Source: an uncultured Christensenella sp.
Lineage (GTDB): Bacteria > Bacillota > Clostridia > Christensenellales > UBA1242
DNA: 64,000 bases
NCBI GenBank assembly: GCA_964564685.1
Contig: CAZMBC010000001.1
Location: 227,206 to 291,205, forward strand
Direction of reading: 5' to 3'
Shown piece by piece: positions 2,658 to 43,124 of this stretch. Under the pieces are notes generated by a model. It made no database searches. It saw only the letters and a program-made list of their open reading frames with translations, and had not been told where the DNA came from. Positions within the stretch are counted from its first letter, which is position 1. Every line of letters begins with the position of its first letter. The translations under genes were made by a program, and so were the position numbers.

Positions 2658-2990
2658 TTAATTTTCAAAGTCATTATTGTTATAATTATGACTAGAAACC
2701 TGCAAAATGCGGTCAAAATTATCATCCTGTGCACTTTTATTACGGGTTATTTTTCCGCACCTGGTGCATTTATAAATAATTACATAACCTTTTTTGCTGT
2801 TATTTTCAATTCCTATAGGCCTTTGTAACCCATTGCATGTATTTGCCCGGTCTCCCGGATTTATATCCACATGCAACGAGTAAAGGCAAAACGGACAATG
2901 ATTTCTTGATGTGTAGCCAAGTGGCGAAACTTGTTTTCCGCAGTTTTGACACACAAATCCCCTATCGTTTTTAATAAATGTTTTTGGCAT
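2658..2990 (-). CDS. RNHCP-domain zinc-ribbon protein
   Basis: 110-aa ORF containing the literal RNHCP motif (YTSRNHCPFCLYSLHVD) plus CxxC pairs (CQNCGK, CTRCGK). ATG lies 2 nt after the RadC stop, with an AAGGA RBS inside the radC 3' end. Confidence 0.7.
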   Translation of the reverse strand: MPKTFIKNDRGFVCQNCGKQVSPLGYTSRNHCPFCLYSLHVDINPGDRANTCNGLQRPIGIENNSKKGYVIIYKCTRCGKITRNKSAQDDNFDRILQVSSHNYNNNDFEN

Positions 2991-2992
2991 TT

Positions 2993-3817
2993 TTATTCCT
3001 TATCTTTTTTTAAAGTATCTACATATTTTGCTGCATTTTGTGCTAGGTCCGACTTTGCTAACATTTCACCATATTTTTCCCGATAATCTGCAATTTTGCC
3101 ATTAGAAAAATATGAATAATATCCGTCCTCGCCTATTATTATATGGTCTAACAAATGTATTCCGTTTGTGCCTAGCGACACGTACAAGTTATGTGTAAAT
3201 TGGTCGTCCGAAGCAGACGGGCAACTTGTACCTGCTGGATGATTATGTGCGATAATAATATTGCTGATATTGTTGCTAATAAGAATGCTAGTGATTTTTC
3301 GAATTGTTACGTTTAAAAAGTTAGATGTTCCACGCTCCACAACATTGCTATAAACAATGCGGTTTTTAGAGTCCAATCCTAACAAGTGCAATTCCTCTAC
3401 AATTTTGCCTGATAGTATAGTAGAAAAATACTGAACAGTTTCATCCGATTTCCAAAGAGTGTTAACAGTGCGCACTTTGTTGCGTTGATAAAAGTAAAAC
3501 ATATCCCTAAAATTATGTAAAAAATGTGCAACAACATCACCCACACCATTGACCGTTTTTAAAAGCATTGTATCTGCTTCTAACACTTTTGAAAACGAAC
3601 CAAATCTTTCAATTAACGCATGCGACAGGCCATTGACATCTTTTTGAGGCAAAACAAAAGTTAGCATATATTCCAAAACTTGGTGGTCATGCATGTTTAG
3701 TAGGCCGTTTTTATCCACATTTTCACGCAAACGCTGGCGGTGACCTGCGTGGATGTTTTTATTTTCTTGATTTTGTTTCATAACAAATATTGTACAATAA
3801 AACAAATTATTTTGCAA
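2993..3817 (-). CDS. radC: RadC-like JAB-domain protein (UPF0758)
   Basis: Has an N-terminal helix-hairpin-helix-like region (LKTVNGVGDVVAHF) and the JAB/MPN motif IIAHNHPAGTSCPSASD. The real start may be the internal ATG at 3781 (MKQNQEN...). Confidence 0.85.
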   Translation of the reverse strand: MQNNLFYCTIFVMKQNQENKNIHAGHRQRLRENVDKNGLLNMHDHQVLEYMLTFVLPQKDVNGLSHALIERFGSFSKVLEADTMLLKTVNGVGDVVAHFLHNFRDMFYFYQRNKVRTVNTLWKSDETVQYFSTILSGKIVEELHLLGLDSKNRIVYSNVVERGTSNFLNVTIRKITSILISNNISNIIIAHNHPAGTSCPSASDDQFTHNLYVSLGTNGIHLLDHIIIGEDGYYSYFSNGKIADYREKYGEMLAKSDLAQNAAKYVDTLKKDKE

Positions 3818-6158: not shown

Positions 6159-9100
6159 CTATTTTTTTATTGCTGTTTGATTCCACAAAGCATATATAGT
6201 TGCATCTTGTGCGCCAACTGTATACTCTGTTGCTTCACTTCCGTCAGTAGTAAGCGACCAACCCAGATGAGCATAATAATAATTTCTTTTAAATATTAGG
6301 CCTTCAGTATATTCCCAAGTTGCCGAGAATTGTGTTAGGTCAACCACTTCACCCTCGTAATAAGTTAAACTTGTGCCAACTTCTGATCCATTTTGATAGA
6401 ACTTAATTGTGCCTGAATTTCCGCTAAAGGTTTGTAAACTAAAGGTTAGTGTTACTTTGCGTACATATAGGTTTAGGTTGCCATCTGGCATAGTAAAGTC
6501 GCCAGTATATGCAAGCGTGCAGTTAACATCTGTATAGTATTTAAGCGCCTGAGTGCTAAAGTTTTGTATGTTAATGTTAGCACCCTCACCTACTATTTCT
6601 GTATAAAGTAAAGTATTGTTGTTATCATACAAGTTAAATGTATAAGGCAATTTTTCAACAACATTCCAATTAGCATACAAGGTTGTTCCTTGTGGCTGAA
6701 TGTTAGTGCTTTCCAACAACTCTCCACCAGGTGTTAACGACCAGCCTAAGAAGTTGTAGTAAGTTATAACTTTGGTTGTTTCGTTTGTGGTTTGATAACT
6801 AACAAGACTTGGCAGTTGTTTTGTGCCGTTGTATTGAATAGTTGCTGCTGTATAATCATTAACAAGCGTATAGCTACTCCATTTTGCATAAGCGGTTTCT
6901 TTTTCAAAACGTGGATAGTTTATGGTTGTAAATTCATTAGTCTGCTCCGCGTCTGTATACCAACCACTTACAAAATTGTATGTAAACTGGTTGCCATTTG
7001 CTGTTGTGTTTGTTATCACATCAACACCAGGGTAGGAAATTGGCGTTCCAACCTCGCCCGTGGTTGAAATTGTGTTGCCATTTACCACAAAGTCCACACC
7101 AGCACTAGCGGTGTTTGTTGTTGTGTATGTTCCTCCACCCACACTAACTTTTTCCTGGTACATAGTAGTAGTTGCAAACTTTTTAATAAATGCTTCAATA
7201 GGCGTAATATCTACTTCCTTGCCAATATCCAATACAAGTGGGTTGTCGGTTAAGCTATTTTGGATGTTAATCATGCCCATGATGTCGATATTAACTGCCA
7301 TTTTGTGCAAATAATCCATAGTTTTTGTTTGTTCGCCATCAAGAACATCAATAGCAGTGGTTGTAAGTGATACAGCCATTGTTCCAATATCAGTACTAAA
7401 CGCCAATTCACTTAGGTTAATAGCCATATCAAACTGATTTCCTGTTTGAACAAAAGAGTTAATAACATTACATATATTAATTCCGCATGGACGATTTCTG
7501 CCATTTTCTATTGACTGGTTAATTGGGTCTTCTATCATGCTTCCAAAGCCCATCATATATTGCAAGTAGTATTCAATATTACTAAATATTGCGCTTGCAG
7601 GAATTTTAGTTACGCGGTCATATTTTGGCACGCTGCTACTAAATTCCTCATCGCTTGTGTGGATAATTGCAATATCATCCCTTAAATAAATGTTTATATT
7701 GCGCTTTCTACTTCCAAATCCATTGCCACCATTGCTATTTATGCCTGTAAGTTGAATTAACGAACCAGTAATTATTGGCATATTTTGAATAGAAATCATT
7801 GCGGTTGGCTTGCCATCTACAATCTTAACCTGAACACCAACATCAATTGTTGCGGCATCTATATTTAATCCTACTATATTAAATGTTAATGCAACCTTGC
7901 CTGAAATATAGTAATCGTTCATGGCTGATGTGTTAATAAGCGCCTTAAGCAAGTTGCTTGCATCACTTAAATCAATATGCTCGTCTGAAGTGTTGTAAAG
8001 TTTAGTAAAGTCTTTTTCTAACGTTGGTTCTTCCGCTGTGTTAGCTACGTTATGTGTAATTGCAACATCCAAAGTGCGAGAATTGCCCACAGCGATATTG
8101 TTTGCTGAAATGTAATCAAGCACCCCATCTACAAAGTTTATTGTAAGAACAAGCGTCTGACCGTTTACATTAAGTGAAATTGTAAACGTACTTTGATTAT
8201 TCAATACAGTTAAGTTAATATTTTTAACCATAGCTACAATATCACTAATATTACTTAACAAACTATCAACTGAACTAACAAGCTCGCCAGAGTTATTTGG
8301 TTTTATTCCCAACAAGTTGTGGAAGTTTGAAACATCTAAGTCGCATTCTGGAATATTTAATTTTTGAGCAAACGAGCCAAGATCGATATTTAAAACATGC
8401 AAAACTATAGACGCTATTTCGCTAATAGAGTTTTTCCTAATTTTAATATTTAGGGATTGGTCGTTTGTTTTTACTTGTTCTGTAATAACAGTAGATGAAG
8501 AAGATGCATCAAACACCTTTTTGTTATGCGTGTAACTTGCATACAAGTATGAGTTATCATAATAAGCCTTAATAGAGTGCGTTACACTAGGCTCTTCATT
8601 TGGATTAGTGTAGTTGTACTCGGTTAACTCGCCACCTGCATAAAGTTCGCCATCAGTTACGGCAAGTTTATCGTCCAGCGTTAGTGCTGTGTAAATTCTG
8701 CCGTTGTTAAGCGCCACAACCGGTCTAACAGTCTCGCCCACTTGTTCGTTTACAATCAGGTCGGCACTAAAGTCAAGATTTCCTGACTTATAGAAGTTAA
8801 GCGCATATTCTACAACATCAAGTACTTTATCATAACTGTTATAAACCACTACGCTTTCGCCATTTATTTCAGTTATGTTTCCGTTTACATCAAATCCCCA
8901 AACCGTGCTATCCACACCTGCGCCAAACGCAAGTTCGTTAATACGCATGATTAGGTTTTTCTTTTTGCTTGCCTCGCTTTCAAAGTCATATGCATCAGAT
9001 GCATAACCTTGGTCGTAAATAACCGTGTTGTCGTCTGTTACATTAGTTGTTATGTCAATTGCACCCAAGGTATCTTGCATAAATTCTAGATTTAACATTA

Positions 9101-12100
9101 AATCCAAGAACTCGGTATTTAGGTTTCCGCCTAGAACATATTTTGTAATTCCAATGCCAAAATTGTTTTCGGTAAGGTCAAAAATTACATCCCTAAGTGC
9201 TGGGGTTTTAACCTGTAACATAGAACCCTCGAACTTGAATTGAATGTTGGTGTTAAAGTTTTCGTTAACCCAATCAATAATATAGTTAATATCCTGCTCG
9301 CTAATACTAATGCAAATTTTTAAGCCCGCAACATCCACATACACTTGGTTGTTTACAAGATAGATGTTTGTGTTAACGCCAAAAGCATCCGAACTAATAT
9401 GAGCGTAAATTTTGTCGTTAACAACATTTAATGTTAGCTTTCCTTGCAGTTTTAATTTAGAGTATCTAACCGCAATATCGCCTGAAATTGCATAGCCTTT
9501 GTCCGTTTTAACACTTTGATAGCTGTTAATTAGGCGCTCGGTGTAATTGTTAAGGTCCGAAATAACTGTTGTGTACTCGTTAATCTCTTGTTCGGTTAGT
9601 GGCTTAACCTCTTGTTGTTCAAGTAGTGCCACGCTTAGCTGCATGCCCATACTACTAATATCCACTTTATTAACTACGCCATCTGTATGCCATAATTTTA
9701 CATCAACAAGGGTTTCGTCTGTTATTTCTAAAGTTTCTTTTAGGTTAAGCACATCCTTAACATTAAGGTTAACATAATTTTCGCCCTCACCAAAATAGTT
9801 AATTTTAATGGTTGTGAAAATGTCGTTAATATTAAAGTTTTCTAGCCCACTAAACGCAGTTTCACTGCCCGATAAATCTATGTTAAACAACTGGCTTAAG
9901 TAGGCTAAGGTTTCTTTTAGGTTGTTTACACTATCGTATAATTTTAAGCCGTCAACATCTAAATATATGTTGTTGTTTTGATATATAATGTTAAGCTCAT
10001 ATCCTGAAATACTTGTATTTAGTTTTATTATATTGCTATTTAAATCAATATGAGCAAACGCCTTATAAGTATTTTCGTTAAGAACTAGGTTCATTTCCAA
10101 ATTGAATGTGGTGTTATCCACAAGGTCATACACGCTACTAATAATGTCGGCGGTTAAATCCCACTGGCGATACTCTGCCACCGTTAAAGATGGTAAGTTG
10201 TTTTGCGTGCCATAAACCTGCATGTTTGCACTAACGCCATCACCCACAAGCGCAATGTTTGTTAGCTCGGTTTCACCCGATAATGTTAACGTATAACCCA
10301 TATATTTGCCCACAAACTCATGTTGTGTTAGGGTTATATCCTTTAACAATCCATCCACCAACGCTATAATTTCGGAATTTGTTACGCTTATATTTGTGTT
10401 TAAAGTAACATCCAAATTAAATGTGGTATTTAGCCATGTTAAAAATTCGTTAATTTGCGTTAGTTCAAAACTTAATTTGTAACCGTCAACCGCAACATAT
10501 AAGCAGTTGTTTTGTAAATAAACACTAACCTGTTTTTCTAGTATAGTTGTGTAAACATATGCTTTTTGTTGGGAAATATTTGCAATGTAGTTTAGCGTAA
10601 ACACATTTGCACCCACACCAATAGTAATATCCCCACTAATGTTGCCCATTAATGTGTTTTTGGTGTTGTTTGCCCAATCGATATAACTTAAAATATCAAC
10701 ATATTCTGCAGTCACAGGCTGTGATACTTCAAAATAATTGTAAGTTGCGCTGGCACTAACCTCAACATTTTTGTAGGTTAATTTTAACGCGGATAATTTG
10801 CTATTTTCACCCAAAATTTCAACATCAAACTCGTTATTAATTTGCGCAATTAAGCGGTTATCGTTTGCATTAAATTTGGTTAAGTATTTTAGCGCATTTT
10901 GCATATCAAACTCATTTATTGTATTGGTTATATCGCTAAAGTCTAAAGCGTTAGCCGAAATTCCTAGCAAGGTTAAAATGTCATCCTTATAATTTGCAAT
11001 TTCACTAACGTTGCACTTTAACTTAAGGTTGTATGCTTTTAAATACACTAAATTGTTAATATAAACAAAGTTTAATGTGCGCTCGTTGTATTCAATTGAG
11101 CCAGAAAGCACAGGATTTGGATTGTTGTACAAGTTAACGCTGTATGCCACTTGAACACCATTCACCTTAACATATCCGTTAAGATTTATATACTCGCTTA
11201 AATAGGTGTTTTTGCTGTATATAATAAAGTCCGCAAGAGTGCTTATGTTTGTGTATTTTGCCTTTTCTTCGGCCGAAAGCTCAACAGGCTTTGTAACCTG
11301 CTCGTTAAGTTGTGCGTTAAGAACAACATCGTTTAAGCCCACATTAAGCGCAGTTATGCGGTTGTTTGAATAATTTACAGCAAAATAAATGTGTTCACCA
11401 GAGTTAAGTAGGTTATCTGCACTAAAACTTACACCCCTAGTTGTAACGTTTAACGAGGATAGATTTATGTTGTTTAGTATTGTGTTTACATCCAAATTCA
11501 TTAGTGCGTCCAGCAAGTTGTTAAGGTCATCCGTATTTGCACTTGCGTTTAGAGCACTTGTTTGTGATTGGTTAGAAAGTTCGTCTTTAAGCTTTTGAAT
11601 AATAACATCAAGCTCGGTTATTTTTCCGCTAACCTTAATGTTTTCATCTACATTTATGTATAATTCATCACCTTGCACCACAACAGCAACATTATAGTCA
11701 TAAACAGTGGTATCAAGGTTTATAAGCAAGCCATTTGTAAAGTCTATTTTAACACTAATATCAATTACGCTATCCAAAAGATTAACTTGAACATTTGCCT
11801 CGTATGCGGTTTGTTTAATATTATTTACAAACTCATCCAAGCCCGCTTTTGTTATAGTAATAGTCTCGTATTCAGCGCTATTTATTGCACTTATTTGTGG
11901 ATTAATACTTGTGGTGCTAAACACTCCACTTGCGTTGGCATAACTTACACCAAAATCTAGTAGGTTATTGTTAACGCTAATACTAGTTGTAACACCCTCA
12001 AACATAAATTTATAAATATCATCAGTTTTAATAAAGGTTATATATGCATCCAATGCGTTAACGGCATCTTTTATATTTTCTACATCTTCTGCCGAAATTT

Positions 12101-15100
12101 CGGTGTTTGTTTCTACATCAAAGTAATCTTTAATATAATCCACAAGTGTGGTTAGTGATTGTGTAGTTGTACATAACTTGCTGTCGTTTAGGGTTAGGTA
12201 GAAAGTGTCGTTTGAATAAACAACTGCTATTTCTGCACCAAGAATATTAGTGTATAACTCTACTTGTAGTGGGTTGTAATTTACAACAACTTTTGCGTCT
12301 AAATTATACTCACCATAATTTAAGGTTAAGTTTCCACTTATACCTGTGCCATTTATCATGTTTTTTACTGGTTCTACAAAGTCTGCCAAGTCAAACACAT
12401 TTATGTAGTTATATTCTGGCAAGTTAAACTCAAACTCGTTGTAACTAATATTAACCGCATATTCCGTGCCATTAAACGTGCACGCAGCACGGGTAATAAG
12501 ATTGTTATTTATAGTAAAGTTAAGCATCATATCTACAAGGTCAATTGATATTATATTGCCAGTTTGATAAATGCCCGCATAGTCAATTTGAGTGCTATCC
12601 AAAATTGCAAACATAGAAGCAAAAACATCTTTAGCCTCACCATTTGGCAAAGCAGAAATTACTAGCTCTGCTATGTCATCACAATCTGCCACTAGTTTTA
12701 ATGCAGAGGCATCTACATATACTTTGCCGTTTGTGTAGTATAAATCTGCATTAACTCCAAACATGCTTGTGTTAGCAACAGCGTTTAATGTGTTAAGGTT
12801 AAGACTAACGCTAACATCTACATCATCAAACTGACCATCGCAATTAATATATGATTGCTCCGTTAGCATAATTAGGGCTTTTGCCAAATTAAGCGCAGGG
12901 GCAATATTGTTGTAATCCGCCGTGTTAACGCTAGGCAAATGTGCTTGTGTATTATCAATTGTAACTCCCGCACTAAAGTTTGGTGTGGTAATCAAAAGAT
13001 TGTCAAAGCGAGTATTTCCAAACAACTTAACAACATATTCGTTGTAAATTGCTGTAAGTTCCCCGTTGTTAAGCGTAATATCTTTAATCAACCCATCAAC
13101 AATTGCTACAAGTTTGTTTGCATCAATTTGTGGTAATTGAATATTTAAATCAAGATTGTATTTTACTTGTAGCCATTCCACAAATGCGCCAATATCGTTT
13201 ACAGCAACGCAAAGTTTATACTCCTCAACCTCAATGTACAAATATCCTTCCATGTAATGGAAATTAATTTCCACGCCATTTAAGCAACTATTTGCATAAA
13301 TTTGTTTTGCGTTTAAATCAGCAGCATAGTTAAAAGTAATGTTATAGCCAAAACCATTAAACATAATTTCACCCGCAAAAGTGTTTAAAACAGCGTCTTT
13401 TATGTGGTTAATCATATCTAAATAGTTAAGCACATTTTCGTATTGTTGTGCATTAACATCAATTTCAAAAGTAGTATAGTTTAGTTGTGCACAGGTGCTA
13501 ATGTCTTTGTAAGAAATTGCGATGCTTTTAATGCGGTTGTTTTGTGCAGTTATTTGCGCTGAAATGCCATTCGTTAACGACAATTTAAGTGTTCCGTCAT
13601 TTTCGGCAAATTTACTAATGTAGTTTAGTGCGTTTTGCGCATCAAACTCTTGCAATTCGCCAACAAGCCCAATTAAGTCAAGTTCGTTTGCAGTAACTCC
13701 CAAAAGCTTAAACAATTGGTCTTTGTAACTTTCAATTTCATTAAGATTAACTAAAAGTTTAAGGTTGTAAGCAGAGATGTACACAACACTGTTTATAAAT
13801 ACAAGTTCTACACTGCGGTTTTTGTATGTTAAAGTAGCACGAACACTAAAGTCATCCGCATTGTGCAAATTAACAACGTAATCTACAATCTGCTCGTTTA
13901 TGTTAACACTGCCCTCAATCGTGATGTACTCGCTTAAGAAAGTGTTCTTGCCATATATAACAAACTCAGCAAGCGAGTTTACACTAACATATTCCTCTTT
14001 TTGTTCAGGTGTAACCTTTACAATTTCTTGCGCAAGGCTATCAAACGAAACATTAACATTGTAATCGTTATACTTTACACCCACAGCCGTTACTTTGTTG
14101 TTTGCGTAGCTAACCGCAAGATATATACTTTCGCCGTTTCCAAAAAGGTCTTGTGCGCTAAAGCTTACACCCGTGCTAGAAATGTTTAGCGTAGAAAGGT
14201 TAATATTTTTAACAATATTTGCAATATCTAACCCGCCAATAACATTTAGCAGTTTTTCCATGTCGTTACTGCTGGTTGGGTCAGCATTTAGCGTGCTGGT
14301 GTTTGGATTGTTGGCAATTTCTTGCTTAAGCATTTCAATTACATCTTTTAGGTCAATAAGTTTGCCCGTAATTTTAATGTTTTCGTCCACATTTACAAAC
14401 AACTCGTCACCTTGCAAAATCGCAACAACATCATAGCCGTAAAGTGTGGTGGAAAGTTGTACAAGCAATTCACCATCAAAGTCAATTTTAATATTAACAT
14501 CAGCATTCTCGCCCGCAATATTTAAATTAACATCAAGTTCGTATGCGGTTTGTTTAAGGTTGTTTACAATCTCATCCAAACCCGCTTTTGTTACAGTAAC
14601 AGGCTCGTATTCAGCGCTATTTATTGCACTTATTTGTGGATTAACGCTTGTGGTGCTAAACACTCCACTTGCGTTGGCATAACTTACACCAAAATCAAGT
14701 AGCTTGTTATTAATTGCAACCACAGTGCAAACATCAGCAAACATAAATTCGTAAACATTATCCATTTTTACAAGGGTAATGTAATGCTGTAAAGTAGAAG
14801 CCAATCCCTTAACCTGCTCCAAAACATCCGACGGAACAAGATTATCCTTTTCTACGCCCAATGCACCACAGATATAACCAGCAAGTGTGGTTAGTGATTG
14901 TGTAGTTGTACATAACTTGCTGTCGTTTAGGGTTAGGTAGAAAGTGTCGTTTGAATAAACAACTGCTATTTCTGCACCAAGAATATTAGTGTATAACTCT
15001 ACTTGTAGTGGGTTGTAATTTACAACAACTTTTGCGTCTAAATTATACTCACCATAATTTAAGGTTAAGTTTCCACTTATACCTGTGCCATTTATCATGT

Positions 15101-16421
15101 TTTTTACTGGTTCTACAAAGTCTGCCAAGTCAAACACATTTATGTAGTTATATTCTGGCAAGTTAAACTCAAACTCGTTGTAACTAATATTAACCGCATA
15201 TTCCGTGCCATTAAATGTGCACGCAACGCGGGTTATGTAATCTTTGTAAATAGTAAAATCAATTTTAACATCATTTAAGTTAAGGCAAATATTGTTACCT
15301 TGTTGTGTAATTGCCTCAAAGTTGATATTTCCTAATGCCGATAGGTCAATTTCCTTAAGTGAGTTAAGTGCTCCAAACACAAAAGACACAGCCTCTTTTT
15401 CTGGGATGTCTGCAATATACTCTTTTAAAAGTTCTACCACATCCTTACAGTCGGTTTTTAATTTAACAATTGGCGCGTCTAAATACATTTTGTTTTGGGT
15501 ATAGTAAAGCGCACCATTTACACCAAAAGCACTTCCTTTTAATACAACGTTTTGGGTGTTAAGGTTAATGTTTGCATCAAAAGCAAATTCCCCAACTGCA
15601 GTTTTGATATTTAAGTAATCCGCAGTTGCAAGTTTAACTCCTCCGCGAAGCAGTGTGAACGCTGGCGAAACATCCATATAGTTGCTAGGTTCACTAACAA
15701 TAACGCCCGAGTTTGTTTTGTTAAGCACAATTGTTGCATTAATAGTTAGGTCGTTATATTTAAAATCCAACAACTCAACTTTTTGCAAGTTGTAATTGCT
15801 ATCCGTATAAATTTCTACATCTACGCTATCGGTTATTGCAAGTAAAAGTTTTGTGCCATTGTCTAGTTTCTCTTCCACAATTTTTTGCTCTAGCGAGGTT
15901 ATTAACGACATGTCAAAATTATCCAACAAGCCATTAAGGTTGCCCACACCTGCAATAGCAAGCACTGCACCCAAACCCTGCATAGCACTATCTGCCTTAA
16001 AACTAATATTTGCGTTCCCGCCCGCAAGATACAATGTTCCGTTTTTGTAAACAATGTTTCCGCTAAAGCGCTTTTCTTCGGCCTCGATGCCTGCATTAAG
16101 GTTAAGCTCTGCACCCGTAAATCCATCGTATAAAACAACATCTCCGCTAATATCTAGCGAAACAGTTTTGCCGTTTTGGCTAACGCTGGCGCTAATTTGC
16201 GCAGACAGGTCTTTTAACGACATAATATTGTTTACCATTTGCCCTAAAGCCGATTGTTCGGGTTTGGAAAGTATAGGACTAGAACCCGAATAGCTGTTGC
16301 TTGCCGAAAGCACAACAATACCCGCAACCATAACAGTGCACAAAATGTATGTTGCCACATAAACAAACATACGCCTAAAAGAAAACTTAACTTTCTTTTT
16401 TAACTTCTTTGTTTTTTTCAT
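6159..16421 (-). CDS. Giant (3,420 aa) membrane-anchored modular surface protein with C-terminal Listeria-Bacteroides (Flg_new / InlB B-repeat type) repeats
   Basis: Uninterrupted 10.26-kb ORF. N-terminus is MKKTKKLKKKVKFSFRR followed by a hydrophobic helix (signal anchor). At least 13 modules of about 180 aa share a motif like YxxNxxY(L/V)D(V/A)xGLKL followed by a helix. The C-terminus has repeats such as TYNFVSGWYTDAEQTNEF...AYAKWS, YYNFLGWSLTPGGE...LYANWN and YAHLGWSLTTDGSEA...IYALWN. Confidence 0.85.
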   Translation of the reverse strand: MKKTKKLKKKVKFSFRRMFVYVATYILCTVMVAGIVVLSASNSYSGSSPILSKPEQSALGQMVNNIMSLKDLSAQISASVSQNGKTVSLDISGDVVLYDGFTGAELNLNAGIEAEEKRFSGNIVYKNGTLYLAGGNANISFKADSAMQGLGAVLAIAGVGNLNGLLDNFDMSLITSLEQKIVEEKLDNGTKLLLAITDSVDVEIYTDSNYNLQKVELLDFKYNDLTINATIVLNKTNSGVIVSEPSNYMDVSPAFTLLRGGVKLATADYLNIKTAVGEFAFDANINLNTQNVVLKGSAFGVNGALYYTQNKMYLDAPIVKLKTDCKDVVELLKEYIADIPEKEAVSFVFGALNSLKEIDLSALGNINFEAITQQGNNICLNLNDVKIDFTIYKDYITRVACTFNGTEYAVNISYNEFEFNLPEYNYINVFDLADFVEPVKNMINGTGISGNLTLNYGEYNLDAKVVVNYNPLQVELYTNILGAEIAVVYSNDTFYLTLNDSKLCTTTQSLTTLAGYICGALGVEKDNLVPSDVLEQVKGLASTLQHYITLVKMDNVYEFMFADVCTVVAINNKLLDFGVSYANASGVFSTTSVNPQISAINSAEYEPVTVTKAGLDEIVNNLKQTAYELDVNLNIAGENADVNIKIDFDGELLVQLSTTLYGYDVVAILQGDELFVNVDENIKITGKLIDLKDVIEMLKQEIANNPNTSTLNADPTSSNDMEKLLNVIGGLDIANIVKNINLSTLNISSTGVSFSAQDLFGNGESIYLAVSYANNKVTAVGVKYNDYNVNVSFDSLAQEIVKVTPEQKEEYVSVNSLAEFVIYGKNTFLSEYITIEGSVNINEQIVDYVVNLHNADDFSVRATLTYKNRSVELVFINSVVYISAYNLKLLVNLNEIESYKDQLFKLLGVTANELDLIGLVGELQEFDAQNALNYISKFAENDGTLKLSLTNGISAQITAQNNRIKSIAISYKDISTCAQLNYTTFEIDVNAQQYENVLNYLDMINHIKDAVLNTFAGEIMFNGFGYNITFNYAADLNAKQIYANSCLNGVEINFHYMEGYLYIEVEEYKLCVAVNDIGAFVEWLQVKYNLDLNIQLPQIDANKLVAIVDGLIKDITLNNGELTAIYNEYVVKLFGNTRFDNLLITTPNFSAGVTIDNTQAHLPSVNTADYNNIAPALNLAKALIMLTEQSYINCDGQFDDVDVSVSLNLNTLNAVANTSMFGVNADLYYTNGKVYVDASALKLVADCDDIAELVISALPNGEAKDVFASMFAILDSTQIDYAGIYQTGNIISIDLVDMMLNFTINNNLITRAACTFNGTEYAVNISYNEFEFNLPEYNYINVFDLADFVEPVKNMINGTGISGNLTLNYGEYNLDAKVVVNYNPLQVELYTNILGAEIAVVYSNDTFYLTLNDSKLCTTTQSLTTLVDYIKDYFDVETNTEISAEDVENIKDAVNALDAYITFIKTDDIYKFMFEGVTTSISVNNNLLDFGVSYANASGVFSTTSINPQISAINSAEYETITITKAGLDEFVNNIKQTAYEANVQVNLLDSVIDISVKIDFTNGLLINLDTTVYDYNVAVVVQGDELYINVDENIKVSGKITELDVIIQKLKDELSNQSQTSALNASANTDDLNNLLDALMNLDVNTILNNINLSSLNVTTRGVSFSADNLLNSGEHIYFAVNYSNNRITALNVGLNDVVLNAQLNEQVTKPVELSAEEKAKYTNISTLADFIIYSKNTYLSEYINLNGYVKVNGVQVAYSVNLYNNPNPVLSGSIEYNERTLNFVYINNLVYLKAYNLKLKCNVSEIANYKDDILTLLGISANALDFSDITNTINEFDMQNALKYLTKFNANDNRLIAQINNEFDVEILGENSKLSALKLTYKNVEVSASATYNYFEVSQPVTAEYVDILSYIDWANNTKNTLMGNISGDITIGVGANVFTLNYIANISQQKAYVYTTILEKQVSVYLQNNCLYVAVDGYKLSFELTQINEFLTWLNTTFNLDVTLNTNISVTNSEIIALVDGLLKDITLTQHEFVGKYMGYTLTLSGETELTNIALVGDGVSANMQVYGTQNNLPSLTVAEYRQWDLTADIISSVYDLVDNTTFNLEMNLVLNENTYKAFAHIDLNSNIIKLNTSISGYELNIIYQNNNIYLDVDGLKLYDSVNNLKETLAYLSQLFNIDLSGSETAFSGLENFNINDIFTTIKINYFGEGENYVNLNVKDVLNLKETLEITDETLVDVKLWHTDGVVNKVDISSMGMQLSVALLEQQEVKPLTEQEINEYTTVISDLNNYTERLINSYQSVKTDKGYAISGDIAVRYSKLKLQGKLTLNVVNDKIYAHISSDAFGVNTNIYLVNNQVYVDVAGLKICISISEQDINYIIDWVNENFNTNIQFKFEGSMLQVKTPALRDVIFDLTENNFGIGITKYVLGGNLNTEFLDLMLNLEFMQDTLGAIDITTNVTDDNTVIYDQGYASDAYDFESEASKKKNLIMRINELAFGAGVDSTVWGFDVNGNITEINGESVVVYNSYDKVLDVVEYALNFYKSGNLDFSADLIVNEQVGETVRPVVALNNGRIYTALTLDDKLAVTDGELYAGGELTEYNYTNPNEEPSVTHSIKAYYDNSYLYASYTHNKKVFDASSSSTVITEQVKTNDQSLNIKIRKNSISEIASIVLHVLNIDLGSFAQKLNIPECDLDVSNFHNLLGIKPNNSGELVSSVDSLLSNISDIVAMVKNINLTVLNNQSTFTISLNVNGQTLVLTINFVDGVLDYISANNIAVGNSRTLDVAITHNVANTAEEPTLEKDFTKLYNTSDEHIDLSDASNLLKALINTSAMNDYYISGKVALTFNIVGLNIDAATIDVGVQVKIVDGKPTAMISIQNMPIITGSLIQLTGINSNGGNGFGSRKRNINIYLRDDIAIIHTSDEEFSSSVPKYDRVTKIPASAIFSNIEYYLQYMMGFGSMIEDPINQSIENGRNRPCGINICNVINSFVQTGNQFDMAINLSELAFSTDIGTMAVSLTTTAIDVLDGEQTKTMDYLHKMAVNIDIMGMINIQNSLTDNPLVLDIGKEVDITPIEAFIKKFATTTMYQEKVSVGGGTYTTTNTASAGVDFVVNGNTISTTGEVGTPISYPGVDVITNTTANGNQFTYNFVSGWYTDAEQTNEFTTINYPRFEKETAYAKWSSYTLVNDYTAATIQYNGTKQLPSLVSYQTTNETTKVITYYNFLGWSLTPGGELLESTNIQPQGTTLYANWNVVEKLPYTFNLYDNNNTLLYTEIVGEGANINIQNFSTQALKYYTDVNCTLAYTGDFTMPDGNLNLYVRKVTLTFSLQTFSGNSGTIKFYQNGSEVGTSLTYYEGEVVDLTQFSATWEYTEGLIFKRNYYYAHLGWSLTTDGSEATEYTVGAQDATIYALWNQTAIKK
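12143..12476 (-). repeat. 334-bp block 100% identical to 14882-15215
   Basis: Base-by-base comparison of the two stretches shows identity from caagtgtggttagtgattg to ccgtgccattaaa. The first mismatch is at 12477/15216 and flanks diverge quickly. Confidence 0.95.
14882..15215 (-). repeat. 334-bp block 100% identical to 12143-12476
   Basis: See the partner copy. Encodes ...CTFNGTEYAVNISYNEFEFNLPEYNYINVFDLADFVEPVKNMINGTGISGNLTLNYGEYNLDAKVVVNYNPLQVELYTNILGAEIAVVYSNDTFYLTLNDSKLCTTTQSLTTL in both copies. Confidence 0.95.
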
Positions 16422-16447: not shown

Positions 16448-17311
16448 TTATATTTGTGGAATTTCCACATCCTCATAAGTAAAACTATTATTTATTGTGC
16501 CTTTGCAGGTTGTAAACCCCAAAACAGCAATTGAAACATCATAAACTTCTGTAGTAGTGTAGCTAATCAAATTCCAATTTTCATCAATTTCGTAGGTTAG
16601 CACAACGCTTTTAAAATAAGGCAGTTTTTTTGATCCAGCTGTGGCCTGAATTTCGTACATGTAATTCATAACTGAATAGTTTGTATCCAGCGTAATGGTA
16701 GCAGTATAATTGCCTTGCTCGTTTTTAGTAACGGGGCTTTCATCCACCACAGTGTTTGTTCCCACAACTAGCGATATCATGCGCTCTGGCGAAATTCCGT
16801 AGGTGCTTTTGTATTCGTCCAAACTAACTGTTTTAGAAGCTTTCGTTGGCCAAGTTGCAGTTGTGGAACTTGTTACTTTGCCGTCATAAATGTTTACGCT
16901 AGTTGTGCCTGTTTTGTAGTAGTCCATTTGAGCAACCTTAACCATGGAACTTGCGCTAATTTTATCCGCATATACATCACCATTAACAAGAATTTTTTGG
17001 CTTACTAATGTTTGTTTGATTCCCGCAGCAGAAATTTCACCCCTAACTTCTTTTTTTACCGCTGTACGATTGTTTAGTATGTTTTCTGCAACAACAAAAT
17101 TTTCGGTGGCAGAAAGATTTTCTGGTGTGTTTCCTTTGGCCTTTTTTAATGCCACTGTAAGGTCGTTTCCCCTAACCACTGCTTCACTAACATTTGGAGC
17201 AAGAACATTTCGTCCATAATTGGTATTGTAATAGTTGCCCGCAAACAAGCCCGTGGCAACAGCCAATATAAGTATTATAGAAAAGTTGATTATGTATCGT
17301 CTTTTTGTCAT
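16448..17311 (-). CDS. Membrane-anchored extracytoplasmic protein of unknown function (287 aa from ATG 17311)
   Basis: MTKRRYIINFSIILILAVATGLFAG is a signal anchor and the rest is hydrophilic and Thr/Ser/Val-rich. The ATG at 17311-17309 overlaps the upstream TGA (17310-17308) as ATGA. It ends 26 nt before the giant gene. Confidence 0.6.
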   Translation of the reverse strand: MTKRRYIINFSIILILAVATGLFAGNYYNTNYGRNVLAPNVSEAVVRGNDLTVALKKAKGNTPENLSATENFVVAENILNNRTAVKKEVRGEISAAGIKQTLVSQKILVNGDVYADKISASSMVKVAQMDYYKTGTTSVNIYDGKVTSSTTATWPTKASKTVSLDEYKSTYGISPERMISLVVGTNTVVDESPVTKNEQGNYTATITLDTNYSVMNYMYEIQATAGSKKLPYFKSVVLTYEIDENWNLISYTTTEVYDVSIAVLGFTTCKGTINNSFTYEDVEIPQI

Positions 17312-18063
17312 AATGTTTTTTCTCCTTTTGTGTTTTTCTTTTGTGTTAGTGACCACAAAAATCTAAGTGGCAACGCGGTCAGTCTGCCAATTTGTCTTGC
17401 GCTGGCCTTTGTTGCAAGCAAAACATCCTCACATATAGAGGTTATTTTATTTTTGCTTAACTTGTTTATATCAGAAACTTTAATGTTGTATTTGCGGTAG
17501 ATATAGTTAATAACAAACTCGTCATTAGGTTTGTCTAACTTAACTTTTAACACTGCTGACTTTTGTTGTTTTGTGTGTAATGAATAAAACTGCTCTTTAG
17601 AGATTTCCCCCACCACATACGAAGCATCAATAAGACAATTATCAAAATAATTTTTCAAGCTTGTAACATATGCATGCTCGCCCTTTAGCGCACGATTGGT
17701 TTCTAATAAATGTATGCTTTTAATTGCCTGCAAAACCTCCTGCGCTGTGTTTAACGGCTCGCTTAAATAACGATCGTAAAACACCTTTCCAAAATGCAAG
17801 TTTATTTTGTTGTAAGCACTTGCAAACTTAACCGAAAAACTGCGCATAAATTCGCTTAAGGACTTTTCATTTTCCTTAACAACCAAATACGCATCCTTTT
17901 TGCCAACTGCATAGGCTAAAATACTTATTCCGTAGGTCACTTTGCTATCCAAGCACGAAAAAAACATTTGCTTATTTTTGTTATTAGCAAATATATCAGA
18001 TTTTCCGCGTAAAACAACCGTATAAACGCCTATTTGGCTTGTTTTTCTTGCTTGTCGTGCCAA
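17308..18063 (-). CDS. IS200/REP-associated Y1-transposase-like protein with C-terminal DnaA-domain-IV-like HTH; catalytic residues apparently lost
   Basis: The N-terminus MARQARKTSQIGVYTVVLRG and GKVFYDRYLSEPL resemble the COG1943/Y1_Tnp family. The expected HUH block reads KDAYLVV and the expected catalytic-Tyr block reads KSIHLLE. The C-terminus ATKASARQIGRLTALP resembles a DnaA_C-type HTH. Confidence 0.55.
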   Translation of the reverse strand: MARQARKTSQIGVYTVVLRGKSDIFANNKNKQMFFSCLDSKVTYGISILAYAVGKKDAYLVVKENEKSLSEFMRSFSVKFASAYNKINLHFGKVFYDRYLSEPLNTAQEVLQAIKSIHLLETNRALKGEHAYVTSLKNYFDNCLIDASYVVGEISKEQFYSLHTKQQKSAVLKVKLDKPNDEFVINYIYRKYNIKVSDINKLSKNKITSICEDVLLATKASARQIGRLTALPLRFLWSLTQKKNTKGEKTL

Positions 18064-36496: not shown

Positions 36497-37597
36497 CTAA
36501 ATTATTCTAACTGGCAAAATCAAATACAAAAATTCATCGCCCTCGTTAGGAGTTATTATGCAAGGTGCGATCGTGCTTGTAAAAGAAAGTTTTAAAAACT
36601 CGTTGTTTACAACCCTTAAAGCCTCAGAAAAATATCTCGCATTAAATGCTATAGTTAGGTCGTTTCCATTTAAGGAAATTGTTATATTTTCTTTAATGTC
36701 ACCCAATTCGCTTTTGGAAGATAACACCATAACCTTTTCAGTTATATCAAACTTAACAAGGTTATTTTTATCTATTCTGGAAAGAAGGGAAGCACGCTCT
36801 AACGCGCTTTCTAATTGTTCCTTGCTTAAAATAACACTTGTAGTAAAGTTTGTAGGAATAATTTGGCGATAGTTAATATAGTCACCATCTAGCAAACGCG
36901 TAGTTATTTTAGTGCTATCCAAATCCACCATTAAATGATTGCGCTGAACATAAACCTTAACAGGCACATCTGTATCTTCCAAAAGTTTAGAAATTTCATT
37001 TAAACTACGAGCAGAAACAATAATATTAAAGTCTTTAGTAGAACTCAACACATCCTTTTTAACAAGTGCAAGCCTATAACCATCCAACGCAACAGCAGTT
37101 ACTGTTCCGCCCTGAACTTCTAACTTACATCCTTTTAATATAGGACGACTATCCTCAACTGCTACCGCAAAAATACTTTTAGAAATTAGTGCTTTTAAAT
37201 CCTTTTGCCTTATTTCAAAATAATCAGAATATTCCACCTGCTTAATTTGTGGAAACTCACTAGCGTTAAGGCAAGCAATTTTACCCACGCTATCCGTATA
37301 TTTTATAGAAAGAATATTGTTGTCGTTAAGGTTAAGTTCAATTTGCTCGTTGTTAAGCTTTTTAATATACTCGCTAAACAACTTGCCAGGAACAACTGTT
37401 TCGCCCTCTAATTTAATTTCGCCACGAATAGTCTTTTCAATAGAAAGTTCTAGGTCAGTTGCGCTTAAAGTTAGAGTGCTTTCCTCAGCGGTTAGCTTAA
37501 TACCCTCTAAGATAGGGTTAGTGTTTTTAGTGCTTGTTCCTTTAGACACTTTAAGTAAAGCATCACTTAACTCTAATCCGTCACAAACTAATTTCAT
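36497..37597 (-). CDS. dnaN: DNA polymerase III beta sliding clamp
   Basis: 366 aa. N-terminus MKLVCDGLELSDALLKVSK...NPILEGIKL and three-domain length. Immediately downstream of dnaA. Confidence 0.9.
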   Translation of the reverse strand: MKLVCDGLELSDALLKVSKGTSTKNTNPILEGIKLTAEESTLTLSATDLELSIEKTIRGEIKLEGETVVPGKLFSEYIKKLNNEQIELNLNDNNILSIKYTDSVGKIACLNASEFPQIKQVEYSDYFEIRQKDLKALISKSIFAVAVEDSRPILKGCKLEVQGGTVTAVALDGYRLALVKKDVLSSTKDFNIIVSARSLNEISKLLEDTDVPVKVYVQRNHLMVDLDSTKITTRLLDGDYINYRQIIPTNFTTSVILSKEQLESALERASLLSRIDKNNLVKFDITEKVMVLSSKSELGDIKENITISLNGNDLTIAFNARYFSEALRVVNNEFLKLSFTSTIAPCIITPNEGDEFLYLILPVRII

Positions 37598-37661
37598 TTT
37601 GTTCTCCTTAAATGTAATTTATTTTTAATATTAATTAAATCGTAATAGTATTTATAAAGAA

Positions 37662-37801
37662 TGTGAATATGTGAACAACTTTTTATTTTACAATATCTTG
37701 TATTTTTTTTTGCTGTTTATTTAAAGTTAAGCACTACATATTGATTTTCAAATGTGTATAAACCTGTGAAAAACTTTAAAAACTTGTCCACATCTTCCAC
37801 A
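37662..37801. other. Cluster of DnaA-box-like 9-mers next to an AT-rich tract (candidate oriC module in the dnaA-dnaN spacer)
   Basis: TGTGAATAT 37662-37670, TGTGAACAA 37670-37678, TGTGTATAA 37753-37761, TTGTCCACA 37784-37792 and TCTTCCACA 37793-37801. Each has 1-2 mismatches to TTATCCACA/TGTGGATAA. AT-only tract at 37610-37660. Confidence 0.5.
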
Positions 37802-37823
37802 AAAGGTGTGTTTTTCGCTTTTT

Positions 37824-39164
37824 CTATACACGATTCGCCATACTTTTGATGTCGTTTATAATAACTTTTAGGCGATTGTTTTCTTTTAGATCGTTAGTTA
37901 TCTTCTCACGCGCGTGTATAACTGTGGTGTGGTCTTTTTTTCCAAACAACTGTGCAATTGACGTTAGCGGAAGGTCAAGCATATCGTAAATAATATACAT
38001 ACAAATTTGCCTTGGCTCTACAATCTCTTTGTTTCGTTTTTTGCCCACAAGGTCATCTTTGCTAATAGAAAAGTATTTACATACGCAATCTATAATGCGC
38101 TCGCTAGTTAAACTAACTCGATTAGTGGAAATATGGTCCTTTAATGCTTCTTTAAGGTCGTCCAAAGTAGCTTCTTCCTTTCCTAATAGGGTAGAGTAAA
38201 AGTAAACTTTGCTTAAAATGCCTTCCATTTCGCGGATATTAGTATCGCAATTATCTGCAATATAACTAAGAACCTCGTCGTTAACATTGTATTTTTCTTC
38301 TTGCACCTTTTTTTGAAGAATAGCCAAACGCGTTTCAAAATCAGGTGATTGAATATCCTGTATCAACCCGCTACTAAACCTGCTACGCAACCTTTCTTCT
38401 AGCGTTGCAATCTCTTTAGGATGGCGGTCAGAAGCAATAATAATTTGTTTGTTGTTTTGATACAAATCGTTAAATGTATGAAAGAACTCTTCCTGAGTAG
38501 ATACTTTGTTTGAAATAAACTGAATGTCGTCAATAATAAGAATATCTAAATTACGATATTTTTCACGGAATTTACTATTAGCATAATCTTTGCCACTTTT
38601 AAGGCTTTCAATATAGTCATTAGTAAACTTTTCGCAAGTTACGTAAAGAACTTTTAATTCCGGATAGTTCTTGCGCACATAATTGCCAATAGAATGTAAC
38701 AAGTGAGTTTTTCCTAGCCCAACACCACCGTAAATAAACAAAGGATTTATTCGGCTAAATGGATGCTCTGCCACGCCGCGCGCTGCTGCATATACATAGC
38801 GGTTGGAGTTTCCTACAACAAAGGTGTCAAATGTGTATTTAGGGTTAAAGTTGCAAAGCACATTATTATCTTCGTTATTTTGCGTAATAAGAGCTTCTAA
38901 CCCATATCGTTCGCGCTCGTTAGGGTCAAGCACAACATAATCCTTTATTTCGTCACTAGCAAGCATAAGCGCTTCCTTAATAGCGTTTCCATGAGAGTTT
39001 ATAATGCGCTGTTTTGCTGTTTCGCTAGTGGTGCTTAAATAAAAAATTCCGTCTTTAAAATCCACAGGCTCAAGCGATTTTATCCAAAGGTCAAAGGAGG
39101 TTACTGAAATCTCTTTTTGCAACTTATTTAACGCACTTTCCCAAACATTGTTTAATTTTAACAA
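37824..39164 (-). CDS. dnaA: Chromosomal replication initiator protein DnaA
   Basis: Walker A GGVGLGKTHLLHS, IIDDIQF, and domain IV KKRNKEIVEPRQICMYI...KDHTTVIHA. TTG start at 39164 preceded by an AGGAGG RBS. Confidence 0.95.
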   Translation of the reverse strand: MLKLNNVWESALNKLQKEISVTSFDLWIKSLEPVDFKDGIFYLSTTSETAKQRIINSHGNAIKEALMLASDEIKDYVVLDPNERERYGLEALITQNNEDNNVLCNFNPKYTFDTFVVGNSNRYVYAAARGVAEHPFSRINPLFIYGGVGLGKTHLLHSIGNYVRKNYPELKVLYVTCEKFTNDYIESLKSGKDYANSKFREKYRNLDILIIDDIQFISNKVSTQEEFFHTFNDLYQNNKQIIIASDRHPKEIATLEERLRSRFSSGLIQDIQSPDFETRLAILQKKVQEEKYNVNDEVLSYIADNCDTNIREMEGILSKVYFYSTLLGKEEATLDDLKEALKDHISTNRVSLTSERIIDCVCKYFSISKDDLVGKKRNKEIVEPRQICMYIIYDMLDLPLTSIAQLFGKKDHTTVIHAREKITNDLKENNRLKVIINDIKSMANRV

Positions 39165-39202
39165 TACTTTTACCTCCTAGTGTTTATATATAAATATAAA
39201 AT

Positions 39203-39231
39203 ATTATATCAATTAATAATCCTAAAGTAAA
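39203..39231 (-). promoter_or_regulatory. Candidate dnaA promoter (extended -10)
   Basis: Minus strand reads TTTACT (39231-39226), 17-nt spacer containing TG, then TATAAT (39208-39203). It lies within the 110-bp recF-dnaA spacer. Confidence 0.4.
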
Positions 39232-39274
39232 GAGAAAATGAAAAAATACCCATTTTTTCAGCATATATAACGCT

Positions 39275-41165: not shown

Positions 41166-43124
<1,959 letters not shown>

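What the first reader, a model, noticed from the sequence alone, without database searches (positions are those of the whole stretch)
12143..15215. 334-bp perfectly identical patch inside otherwise diverged 2,739-bp tandem super-repeats
Seen: 12143-12476 and 14882-15215 are identical base for base, with the first mismatch at 12477/15216. A second patch (about 11872-11965 vs 14611-14704) is about 97% identical at the same 2,739-bp offset. Elsewhere the two 913-aa super-repeats are clearly diverged at both protein and DNA level. Inference: this mosaic identity is the signature of recent intragenic gene conversion or recombination. The perfect repeat is a substrate for in-frame deletion or expansion of exactly one 913-aa unit, giving length or antigenic variation of a surface protein. 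If the contig is a short-read or MAG assembly, it could instead be an assembly collapse or chimera.
Basis: seen in the sequence. Interest (0 to 1): 0.6.

Follow-up and report, generated by a model that had tools for sequence, protein, structure and literature searches.

The report
Gene-conversion patch in giant surface-protein gene
Two old, strongly diverged 913-residue copies inside one 3,420-residue envelope-protein gene of an uncultured gut Clostridia bacterium share a 334-base stretch that is identical letter for letter. This is the footprint of DNA being copied from one copy to the other, a well-known way for repetitive bacterial surface proteins to evolve, so the case is real but not surprising.

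Summary
Window 12143-12476 and 14882-15215 are identical over 334 nt, and this is the longest exact run at that offset. The offset is 2739 nt, or 913 codons, so it is in frame. Both copies lie in one ORF (6159-16421, minus strand, 3420 aa).

The ORF encodes an N-terminally membrane-anchored protein built from 13 copies of an unannotated ~183-aa domain. Five of these domains form a super-unit that is duplicated in tandem. Outside the patches the two super-units share 36% of residues and 52% of bases, and synonymous sites are saturated. Inside the patch all 110 degenerate codons match (P~7e-39). A second, older tract lies 178 nt downstream.

An independent MEGAHIT contig from another sample (99.7% identical) reproduces the order super-unit 1, junction, start of the second patch copy. 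The tandem structure is therefore not an assembly chimera.

The closest orthologues have one super-unit, equally distant from both copies. Among the other 149 listed family representatives, 27 carry long exact internal repeats.

The best reading is non-crossover intragenic gene conversion, possibly recurrent, between old tandem super-repeats. Length variation through the patch is plausible and in frame but was not observed. This is a new member of a known kind, of modest interest.

The parts
6159..16421 (-). Giant ORF of 3420 aa that contains everything described here. It has no Pfam or NCBIfam family.
   Evidence: identical to P0001 in the protein library
16287..16421 (-). N-terminal basic stretch plus a ~23-residue hydrophobic segment (MKKTKKLKKKVKFSFRRMFVYVATYILCTVMVAGIVVLSAS...), read as a signal anchor
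   Evidence: read directly from the translation; inference
9033..16280 (-). Array of 13 copies of a ~183-aa domain (aa ~48-2463), 13-20% identical to each other. Each has a conserved AEY motif and a ...Y.N..lYv.v...KL motif.
   Evidence: a profile of it finds 457 giant proteins
13056..15803 (-). Super-repeat 1 (aa ~207-1122, five domains)
10170..13055 (-). Super-repeat 2 (aa ~1123-2084, five domains), directly abutting super-repeat 1
14882..15215 (-). Patch copy R1 (aa 403-513), identical to R2. It runs from the last strands of domain 2 through the beta-meander of domain 3 into the first following helix.
   Evidence: In strain L023 it carries two SNPs, at window 15119 (F435L) and 15051 (synonymous).
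12143..12476 (-). Patch copy R2 (aa 1316-1426)
14704..14881 (-). Diverged spacer between the two tracts in super-repeat 1 (aa ~515-575, predicted helical hairpin). Its partner is 11965-12142. The pair shares 36% of residues and 56% of bases.
   Evidence: no other donor for either version in the window
14539..14703 (-). Second, older tract, copy in super-repeat 1
11800..11964 (-). Second, older tract, copy in super-repeat 2. It is 92.7% identical to its partner, with a 97.8% core at 11865-11957.
   Evidence: 29/30 codons identical, P=1.5e-9
6732..8351 (-). Conserved non-repeat C-terminal module (aa ~2691-3230), present in 86 of 149 family representatives
6162..6974 (-). C-terminal Listeria-Bacteroides-repeat-like units (motifs GWY.D...F...YPR...YAKW, LGWSL...LYANW, LGWSL...IYALW)
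   Evidence: Motifs read. Pfam Flg_new hits 8 of 11 aligned homologues but not the window protein itself.
16448..17356 (-). Upstream 302-aa membrane protein with no family. It sits immediately before the giant gene in at least 14 of 22 related loci and in L023 and L025, so it is probably a partner in the same operon.

Best explanation
The window comes from the origin-proximal chromosome of an uncultured, low-GC gut Clostridia bacterium; relatives are labelled Christensenella, Catabacter or Clostridia MAGs. Gene 6159-16421 encodes a fast-evolving, N-terminally anchored giant envelope protein made of 13 copies of an unannotated ~183-aa domain.

In this species' lineage a block of five domains (913 aa) was duplicated in tandem long ago, and the two blocks have since diverged to synonymous saturation. 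Within that background, homologous recombination without crossover (gene conversion between the two blocks, within one chromosome or between sister chromosomes) has copied at least two short tracts from one block to the other. The 334-nt tract is very recent. The ~165-nt tract 178 nt downstream is older (93-98% identical) and has a decaying tail.

The likeliest dynamics (inferred) are an island of continuing concerted evolution. The region that stayed similar keeps being re-homogenised. The flanks, including a helical hairpin between the tracts, have diverged too far for strand exchange, which explains the sharp borders.

As a by-product, the 334-nt direct repeat at an in-frame 2739-nt spacing is long enough for RecA-type recombination to delete or re-duplicate exactly one 913-aa block. 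That outcome is inferred, not observed.
For: **Shown**
- The repeat is exact and is the longest run at that offset.
- One ORF contains both copies.
- Super-repeat alignment and codon statistics: background 36% aa and 52% nt identity, 45% codon identity at conserved residues; patch 110/110 codons, P~7e-39; second tract 29/30 codons, P=1.5e-9; tail 25/32, P=1.4e-4.
- Mismatch density of about 50% starts within a few bases of both patch borders.
- An independent contig, L023, from ENA ERZ27271066 (MEGAHIT k141) matches window 18712-12381 at 99.73%. It spans R1, the rep1/rep2 junction and 96 nt of R2.
- The positional orthologue P0002 (L025, same synteny) and P0004 and P0006 each have a single unit, equally similar to both copies: 38/38, 27/27 and 26/28%.
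- P0002 is only 48-50% identical to the patch peptide.
- 27 of the other 149 family representatives carry exact internal repeats of 20-767 aa, at offsets that are multiples of the domain length.
- The patch shows no RNA structure signal (z=+0.35) and no excess of promoter-like sites. Rfam gives no hit.

**From established knowledge (my own, not tested here)**
- RecA-dependent recombination needs only tens of bases of identity.
- An internal identical patch with diverged flanks on both sides marks a non-crossover conversion rather than an unequal crossover.
Against: - No reads were available, so the exactness of the identity could be inflated by bubble-popping in the assembler.
- Initiating homologous recombination in a 52%-identical background is hard for a one-off event. 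The island model solves this but is itself inferred.
- The gene-3' border is abrupt rather than graded. Many conversions with varied end points would predict a gradient.
- The direction of conversion and the number of events cannot be determined without a pre-conversion allele.
- The two SNPs in R1 of strain L023 are no more than ordinary strain divergence predicts: 0.3% gives about 1 expected in 334 nt. They do not prove that conversion post-dates the strain split.
- No deletion or expansion variant was seen.
Confidence: 0.8

Rival explanations
1. Assembly or consensus artefact. The two copies are really different, or the tandem duplication is not real, and the assembler collapsed, chimerised or homogenised them.
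For: - The source is an NCBI contig of 327 kb, most likely a MAG, and relatives are all short-read MAGs.
- Bubble-popping can erase a few SNPs between near-identical copies that are then traversed twice.
- The only other strain seen has two SNPs in R1 relative to the window.
- That strain's k=141 contig crosses R1, which should not be possible if R1 and R2 shared a 141-mer there. This hints that the copies are not identical in that strain.
Against: - An independent assembly from another sample reproduces A1-R1-B1-junction-A2 and the first 96 nt of R2, which equal the first 96 nt of its own R1.
- The 10.3-kb ORF stays open. The patch sits in register with the paralogous alignment and with a second tract at the same offset.
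- No assembler can make 52%-identical sequences identical, so at most a few SNPs are hidden.
- The rep1/rep2 junction is a unique sequence that could not arise by merging alleles of single-unit genes.
Confidence: 0.07
2. The identity is maintained by selection on the sequence itself: either an unusually constrained peptide, or a functional DNA or RNA element embedded in both copies.
For: The patch region is somewhat better conserved against P0002 (48-50% identity) than the unit average (38%).
Against: - All 110 degenerate codons are identical while synonymous sites elsewhere are saturated, and peptide selection cannot do that.
- Orthologues keep only about half of the residues.
- There is no Rfam hit, no excess RNA folding (z=+0.35) and no excess of promoter-like or terminator-like sites.
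- There is no DNA-level similarity to the orthologue L025 in this segment.
Confidence: 0.03
3. A one-off event that does not depend on homology, such as replication template switching or microhomology-mediated break-induced copying. This would have pasted a ~340-nt segment of one super-unit over the other, rather than RecA-type conversion in a persisting island.
For: - Both borders are sharp, especially the gene-3' one.
- The flanks are too diverged (~50% mismatch) to support ordinary strand exchange.
Against: - A second tract at exactly the same register, 178 nt away, with intermediate divergence and a decaying tail argues for repeated homology-guided events.
- The replacement is perfectly in register, as expected for homology-guided repair.
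- The two mechanisms cannot be separated from one sequence.
Confidence: 0.08

Closest known systems
Intragenic (ectopic) gene conversion and concerted evolution between paralogous repeats in prokaryotes (surveyed for paralogous genes in PMC6053082; homologous-recombination-based surface variation is reviewed in work cited by PMC8201768)
   Same: - There is a tract of complete identity, synonymous sites included, between paralogous segments that are otherwise saturated.
- Both flanks are diverged, which is the non-crossover signature.
- The two copies are no closer to each other outside the tract than to the orthologue.
   Different: - The partners are two five-domain blocks inside one ORF rather than two genes.
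- The homogenised island is only about 12% of the unit.
- No donor polarity or population data are available.
Periscope proteins: variable-length bacterial surface proteins with tandem arrays of highly identical domains, such as Sgo_0707, SasG/Aap, Rib, Esp and CdrA (PMC8201768, PMC9704523)
   Same: - It is a very long, repetitive envelope protein.
- DNA identity between repeats is proposed to allow intragenic recombination that adds or removes whole folded units in frame.
- Within this family, 27 of the other 149 listed representatives have perfect internal repeats of up to 767 aa. Orthologues range from 2065 to 3420 aa.
   Different: - In the window the array is not highly identical: domains share 13-20% and super-units 36% of residues.
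- Only one 334-nt patch could mediate recombination, and the unit at stake is a 913-aa five-domain block.
- Anchoring is by an N-terminal membrane segment, not a C-terminal LPXTG motif.
- Strain-level length variation has not been seen.
- The rod-like structure is not established, because the AF2 models were poor.
Gram-positive surface proteins with Listeria-Bacteroides repeats (Pfam Flg_new, PF09479)
   Same: The C-terminal module of 8 of 11 aligned homologues hits Flg_new. The window protein shows the same GW..D...F...YP....YAKW motifs.
   Different: - The window protein itself gives no Pfam hit, even at E<=10.
- The bulk of the protein is an unannotated domain.

Membership tests
Intragenic gene conversion / concerted evolution tract | Identity between paralogous segments far above background, including at synonymous sites | tested here: met
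   110/110 degenerate codons are identical against a background of 45% (P~7e-39). The second tract has 29/30 (P=1.5e-9).
Intragenic gene conversion / concerted evolution tract | Diverged paralogous sequence on both sides of the tract (a non-crossover patch, not a block reaching the unit end) | tested here: met
   About 50% mismatch begins within a few bases of both borders. The flanking 30-codon windows are 23-37% identical at the residue level.
Intragenic gene conversion / concerted evolution tract | The tract is not explained by cross-species conservation of the peptide or DNA | tested here: met
   The P0002 orthologue is 48-50% identical to the patch peptide. BLASTN finds no DNA match to L025 in this segment.
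Intragenic gene conversion / concerted evolution tract | Polymorphism between strains that shows the event or its polarity | tested here: inconclusive
   Strain L023 has two SNPs in R1 relative to the window (both window copies carry T), but its R2 is known for only 96 nt.
Periscope proteins | Tandem array of highly identical repeats at DNA and protein level | tested here: not met
   Domains are 13-20% identical and super-units 36% aa / 52% nt. Only 334 nt plus ~165 nt are near-identical.
Periscope proteins | Repeat-number (length) variation among strains of a species | tested here: inconclusive
   One other strain is known, and only partially; it has the same structure through the junction. 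Between species, lengths are 2065-3420 aa, and P0002 lacks one unit.
Periscope proteins | Cell-surface location with an anchor and a projected functional domain | tested here: inconclusive
   An N-terminal signal anchor is read from the sequence, and homologues have Flg_new repeats. There is no LPXTG motif and no experimental localisation.
Periscope proteins | Repeats form an elongated rod | not testable with these tools
   The AF2 models had pLDDT of 58.7 and 43.7. Foldseek against the PDB gave nothing below E=0.1.
Flg_new (PF09479) repeat proteins | Significant match to the Pfam model | tested here: inconclusive
   The window protein gives no hit. 8 of 11 aligned homologous C-terminal modules hit, with a best E-value of 7.5e-8.
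Any curated protein family for the ~183-aa repeat | Match in Pfam-A or NCBIfam | tested here: not met
   Pfam gives no hit. NCBIfam gives only sub-threshold noise.

The most novel reading that the evidence does not exclude
The identity island is not a neutral by-product but is selectively kept identical. It would act as a recombination hinge that lets cells reversibly drop or re-gain a 913-aa, five-domain block of a core, origin-proximal, rapidly evolving giant envelope protein. This would be a periscope-like length switch that works on multi-domain super-units. It would operate across a previously undescribed family of 457 or more giant proteins in uncultured gut Clostridia, always paired with a ~300-aa membrane partner.
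Probability: 0.12. Interest if true: 0.55.

Novelty: new member of a known kind. Interest (0 to 1): 0.3.

Why it matters
- The case gives a clean, statistically unambiguous example of non-crossover gene conversion inside a single bacterial ORF. It comes from an uncultured gut lineage, and an independent assembly confirms the structure.
- It points to an unannotated family of giant envelope proteins whose internal architecture is visibly in flux. The family has a ~183-aa domain, 457 or more members and a conserved membrane partner.
- If the patch mediates block gain and loss, these commensals would vary the reach or antigenicity of a major surface structure in the way known from pathogens.
- There is also a practical point. 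Patches like this are where short-read MAG assemblies break or silently homogenise, so lengths and repeat identities of such genes in MAG catalogues should be treated with care.

Tried and rejected
**Searches that found nothing**
- The exact-protein look-up of the giant protein found nothing. The same held for the 302-aa partner with its GTG start, rubrerythrin and the 156-aa ORF. The source genome is not in that index.
- The search for homologous proteins timed out on the full protein. It found nothing for super-repeat 1 or for the C-terminal alignment, although HMMER on the representative library finds hundreds. The word index evidently fails for this composition.
- The search for related loci with super-repeat 2 found no relatives in genome contigs or metagenome contigs.
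- A degenerate DNA pattern for a patch peptide found nothing in metagenome contigs.
- These failures mean no population series could be assembled.
- DegV and the 180-aa protein are on three contigs each, but only a 3.7-kb contig that stops before the giant gene was returned.

**Structure**
- The AF2 model of one domain had pLDDT 58.7. It showed a helix, a six-strand meander and helices.
- The two-domain model had pLDDT 43.7.

**Ideas rejected**
- A third donor for the diverged spacer: no other DNA match exists in the window.
- Interspecies import: there are no high-identity blocks against L025.
- An embedded RNA or promoter.
- P0002 as the deletion product of recombination at the patch. Upstream of the patch its unit is closer to rep1, but downstream it is not clearly closer to rep2, so this is unsupported.
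- Paralogues elsewhere in the window: none were found.
Full report
**1. The observation**

Window 12143-12476 and 14882-15215 are identical over 334 nt. The run cannot be extended: mismatches sit at 12142, 12141, 12139... and at 12477, 12487, 12489.... The offset is 2739 nt, or 913 codons.

The repeat finder recovers the same two families at spacing 2739 and nothing comparable elsewhere in the gene. Tandem Repeats Finder reports no short-period array.

Its core, 11865-11957, is 97.8%, and the tract 11800-11964 is 92.7%.

**2. What the repeat sits in**

Both copies lie in one ORF, 6159-16421 on the minus strand, of 3420 aa. The protein begins with a basic stretch and a ~23-residue hydrophobic segment, read as a signal anchor. 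It has no Pfam or NCBIfam family.

Tiled self-BLAST and alignment show two levels of repetition.
- A ~183-aa unit is present 13 times (aa ~48-2463). The copies are 13-20% identical and share the motifs AEY and Y.N..lYv.v...KL.
- A five-unit super-repeat aligns aa ~207-1122 with aa ~1123-2084. The offset is 913 aa, or 922 aa upstream of a 9-aa indel.

The patch is aa 403-513 and 1316-1426. It does not coincide with a unit boundary. It runs from the last strands of unit 2 through the helix and six-strand meander of unit 3 into the first following helix. Secondary structure comes from a mediocre AF2 model with pLDDT 58.7.

**3. Codon-level mosaic**

| Region | aa identity | nt identity | Identical codons at conserved residues |
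|---|---|---|---|
| Background, outside the patches | 36% | 52% | 113/251 (45%, saturated) |
| 334-nt patch | about 100% | 100% | 110/110 (P~7e-39) |
| Spacer, aa 515-575 | 36% | 56% | 11/21 |
| Second tract core, aa 576-607 | 94% | 97% | 29/30 (P=1.5e-9) |
| Second tract tail, aa 608-665 | 55% | 71% | 25/32 (P=1.4e-4) |

There are therefore at least two tracts of different age, separated by a fully diverged piece. Neither version of that spacer has another DNA match in the window.

**4. Is it an assembly artefact?**

The exact protein exists in the 15-billion-protein collection as a singleton from an NCBI contig of 326,964 bp.

A search with the 302-aa upstream protein found a 100% identical copy (P0151) on two other assemblies. 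One is contig k141_337815 of ENA ERZ27271066 (L023, 6331 bp). It matches window 18712-12381 at 99.73%, with 16 SNPs and 1 indel.
- L023 runs through R1, the rest of super-repeat 1, the rep1/rep2 junction and the start of super-repeat 2. It stops 96 nt into R2.
- Those 96 nt equal the first 96 nt of its own R1.
- The tandem structure and the presence of the patch sequence at both places are thus reproduced in a different sample.

L023's R1 differs from the window at two sites: window 15119 (F435L) and 15051 (synonymous). Both window copies carry the other allele at those sites.

The contig ends exactly one base before the R2 site homologous to its first R1 SNP, and a k=141 unitig crossed R1. 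Both facts hint that R1 and R2 are not identical in that sample, or that R2 is polymorphic there. Without reads this remains a lead, because a coverage gap would have the same effect.

The perfect identity in the window could hide a few SNPs collapsed by the assembler. Near-identity cannot be manufactured from 52%-identical sequence.

**5. Relatives**

A profile of the 12 distinct units was searched against 1.84 billion representative proteins. It finds 457 proteins at E<=1e-3 and 118 at E<=1e-30. All are 1-6 kaa long with 4-17 units.

The closest, P0002 (2493 aa), aligns at 46% to aa 1035-3419 and at 40% to aa 17-1254. It therefore lacks 927 aa, about one super-unit.

Its locus, L025 (GCA_965354795.1), has the same gene order as the window: FtsH, NTP-transferase, a 249-aa ORF, the 287-aa partner, the giant gene, rubrerythrin, DegV and RadC. 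It is therefore a positional orthologue.

The single unit of P0002, P0004 and P0006 is equally similar to both window copies: 38/38, 27/27 and 26/28%. The duplication is therefore specific to the window's lineage. It is about as old as the split from P0002's species.

P0002 is only 48-50% identical to the patch peptide, and no DNA-level match to L025 exists there.

A conserved C-terminal module (aa ~2691-3230) is present in 86 of 149 representatives. An alignment of it retrieved 22 loci from GTDB species representatives. All are uncultured Clostridia, Christensenella, Catabacter or Lachnospiraceae-labelled gut MAGs. Flg_new hits 8 of 11 members of that alignment.

The 302-aa partner lies directly upstream in at least 14 of the 22 loci. 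L008, L009 and L021 share wider synteny, with FtsH 75-76% identical. Their giant genes encode only 2065-2090 aa and are about 30% identical in the C-terminal module. This is a core but very fast-evolving gene.

**6. Is internal homogenisation a family trait?**

Among the 150 listed representatives, the median longest exact internal peptide repeat is 6 aa. However, 27 proteins besides the window's have exact repeats of 20-767 aa. Their offsets are multiples of the unit length, from 183 to 1150 aa.
- Some are whole-unit tandem duplications, where the repeat length equals the offset.
- Others cover only 8-50% of the offset, like the window's.

Among the 22 species-representative MAG loci none has an exact DNA repeat above 31 nt. 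Two (L002, L015) carry an older 408-aa duplication at 65-68% nt identity. Short-read MAGs probably under-represent such repeats.

**7. Mechanism**

An internal identical tract with diverged flanks on both sides is what non-crossover gene conversion produces. Unequal crossover would instead give blocks that extend to a unit end, or would change copy number.

RecA-type exchange needs pre-existing identity. I therefore favour an island of continuing concerted evolution that has persisted since the duplication. The flanks and the helical spacer escaped and diverged. This step is inferred.

A one-off template-switch event cannot be excluded, and the abrupt gene-3' border fits it. The second, older, in-register tract argues for recurrence.

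Alternative functions for the DNA itself find no support: there is no Rfam hit, folding z=+0.35, and promoter-like sites number 19 against 15.2+/-4.2 in shuffles.

The gene lies 24-34 kb from the GC-skew minimum at ~40 kb (dnaA, dnaN, gyrB and gyrA). It is transcribed co-directionally with replication.

**8. Consequence**

Recombination between R1 and R2 would give an in-frame 2507-aa protein with a chimeric unit, or a 4333-aa one. This is plausible from the repeat length and from the unit-sized differences between species. It was not observed: the one other strain has both units as far as its contig reaches.

**9. Verdict**

The gene-conversion reading is well supported and the artefact reading largely excluded. 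The length-switch idea is untested.

The phenomenon is a known kind: concerted evolution in repetitive surface proteins, with Periscope proteins (PMC8201768) as the nearest named class. The window protein fails their defining feature of a highly identical array.

The surrounding protein family is unannotated and may deserve description in its own right.

Noticed in passing
window 9033-16280 (-), and P0002-P0150: There is an apparently unannotated ~183-aa repeat domain with no Pfam or NCBIfam hit. A profile of it finds 457 proteins of 1-6 kaa with 4-17 copies in the 1.84-billion-protein library. It is predicted as a helix, a six-strand beta-meander, helices and a few further strands, but the AF2 confidence is low.
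   Followed up: partly
window 16448-17356 (-): A 302-aa membrane protein without a family lies directly upstream of the giant gene. It keeps that position in at least 14 of 22 related loci and in L023 and L025, so this is probably a conserved two-gene module.
   Followed up: partly
P0037, P0110, P0008, P0041, P0009, P0015, P0007, P0043 and others: 27 of the other 149 listed family representatives contain exact internal peptide repeats of 20-767 aa at offsets that are multiples of the domain length. Recent multi-domain duplication or homogenisation is common in the family. Their DNA could not be fetched.
   Followed up: partly
L023:6331 (= window 12381): The independent MEGAHIT k141 contig ends exactly one base before the R2 site homologous to its own R1 SNP (window 15119/12380), yet it crosses R1 without breaking. 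This is consistent with a graph branch, meaning R2 is polymorphic or different there, but a coverage gap would look the same.
   Followed up: partly
window 36497-45698: This is the chromosomal origin region. dnaN (36497-37597), dnaA (37824-39164) and a RecF/SMC-like ATPase (39275-40363) are all on the minus strand. gyrB (41175-43124) and gyrA (43140-45698) are on the plus strand. The cumulative GC skew reaches its minimum at about 40 kb. The RecF-like gene upstream of dnaA is an unusual order.
   Followed up: no
window 17308-18063 (-): A 251-aa ORF has a weak, sub-threshold resemblance to REP-associated tyrosine transposases (NCBIfam E=0.007, 16 bits against a cut-off of 80). It is syntenic in L008, L009, L021, L023 and L025, so it is probably not mobile here.
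   Followed up: no
L002:3504-5881 and L015:7626-10033: Two related species carry an older internal duplication of ~408 aa (two domains) at 65-68% nt identity. This is independent of the window's 913-aa duplication.
   Followed up: no
window 14697-14879 vs 11958-12140: The diverged spacer between the two conversion tracts differs in base composition between the copies (GC 0.38 against 0.28).
   Followed up: no
window 6159-16421 compared with L008, L009, L021: Positional orthologues in genomes whose FtsH is 75-76% identical are only about 30% identical in the best-conserved module of the giant protein. They are 2065-2090 aa long against 3420 aa here. This is an extremely fast-evolving core gene.
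   Followed up: partly
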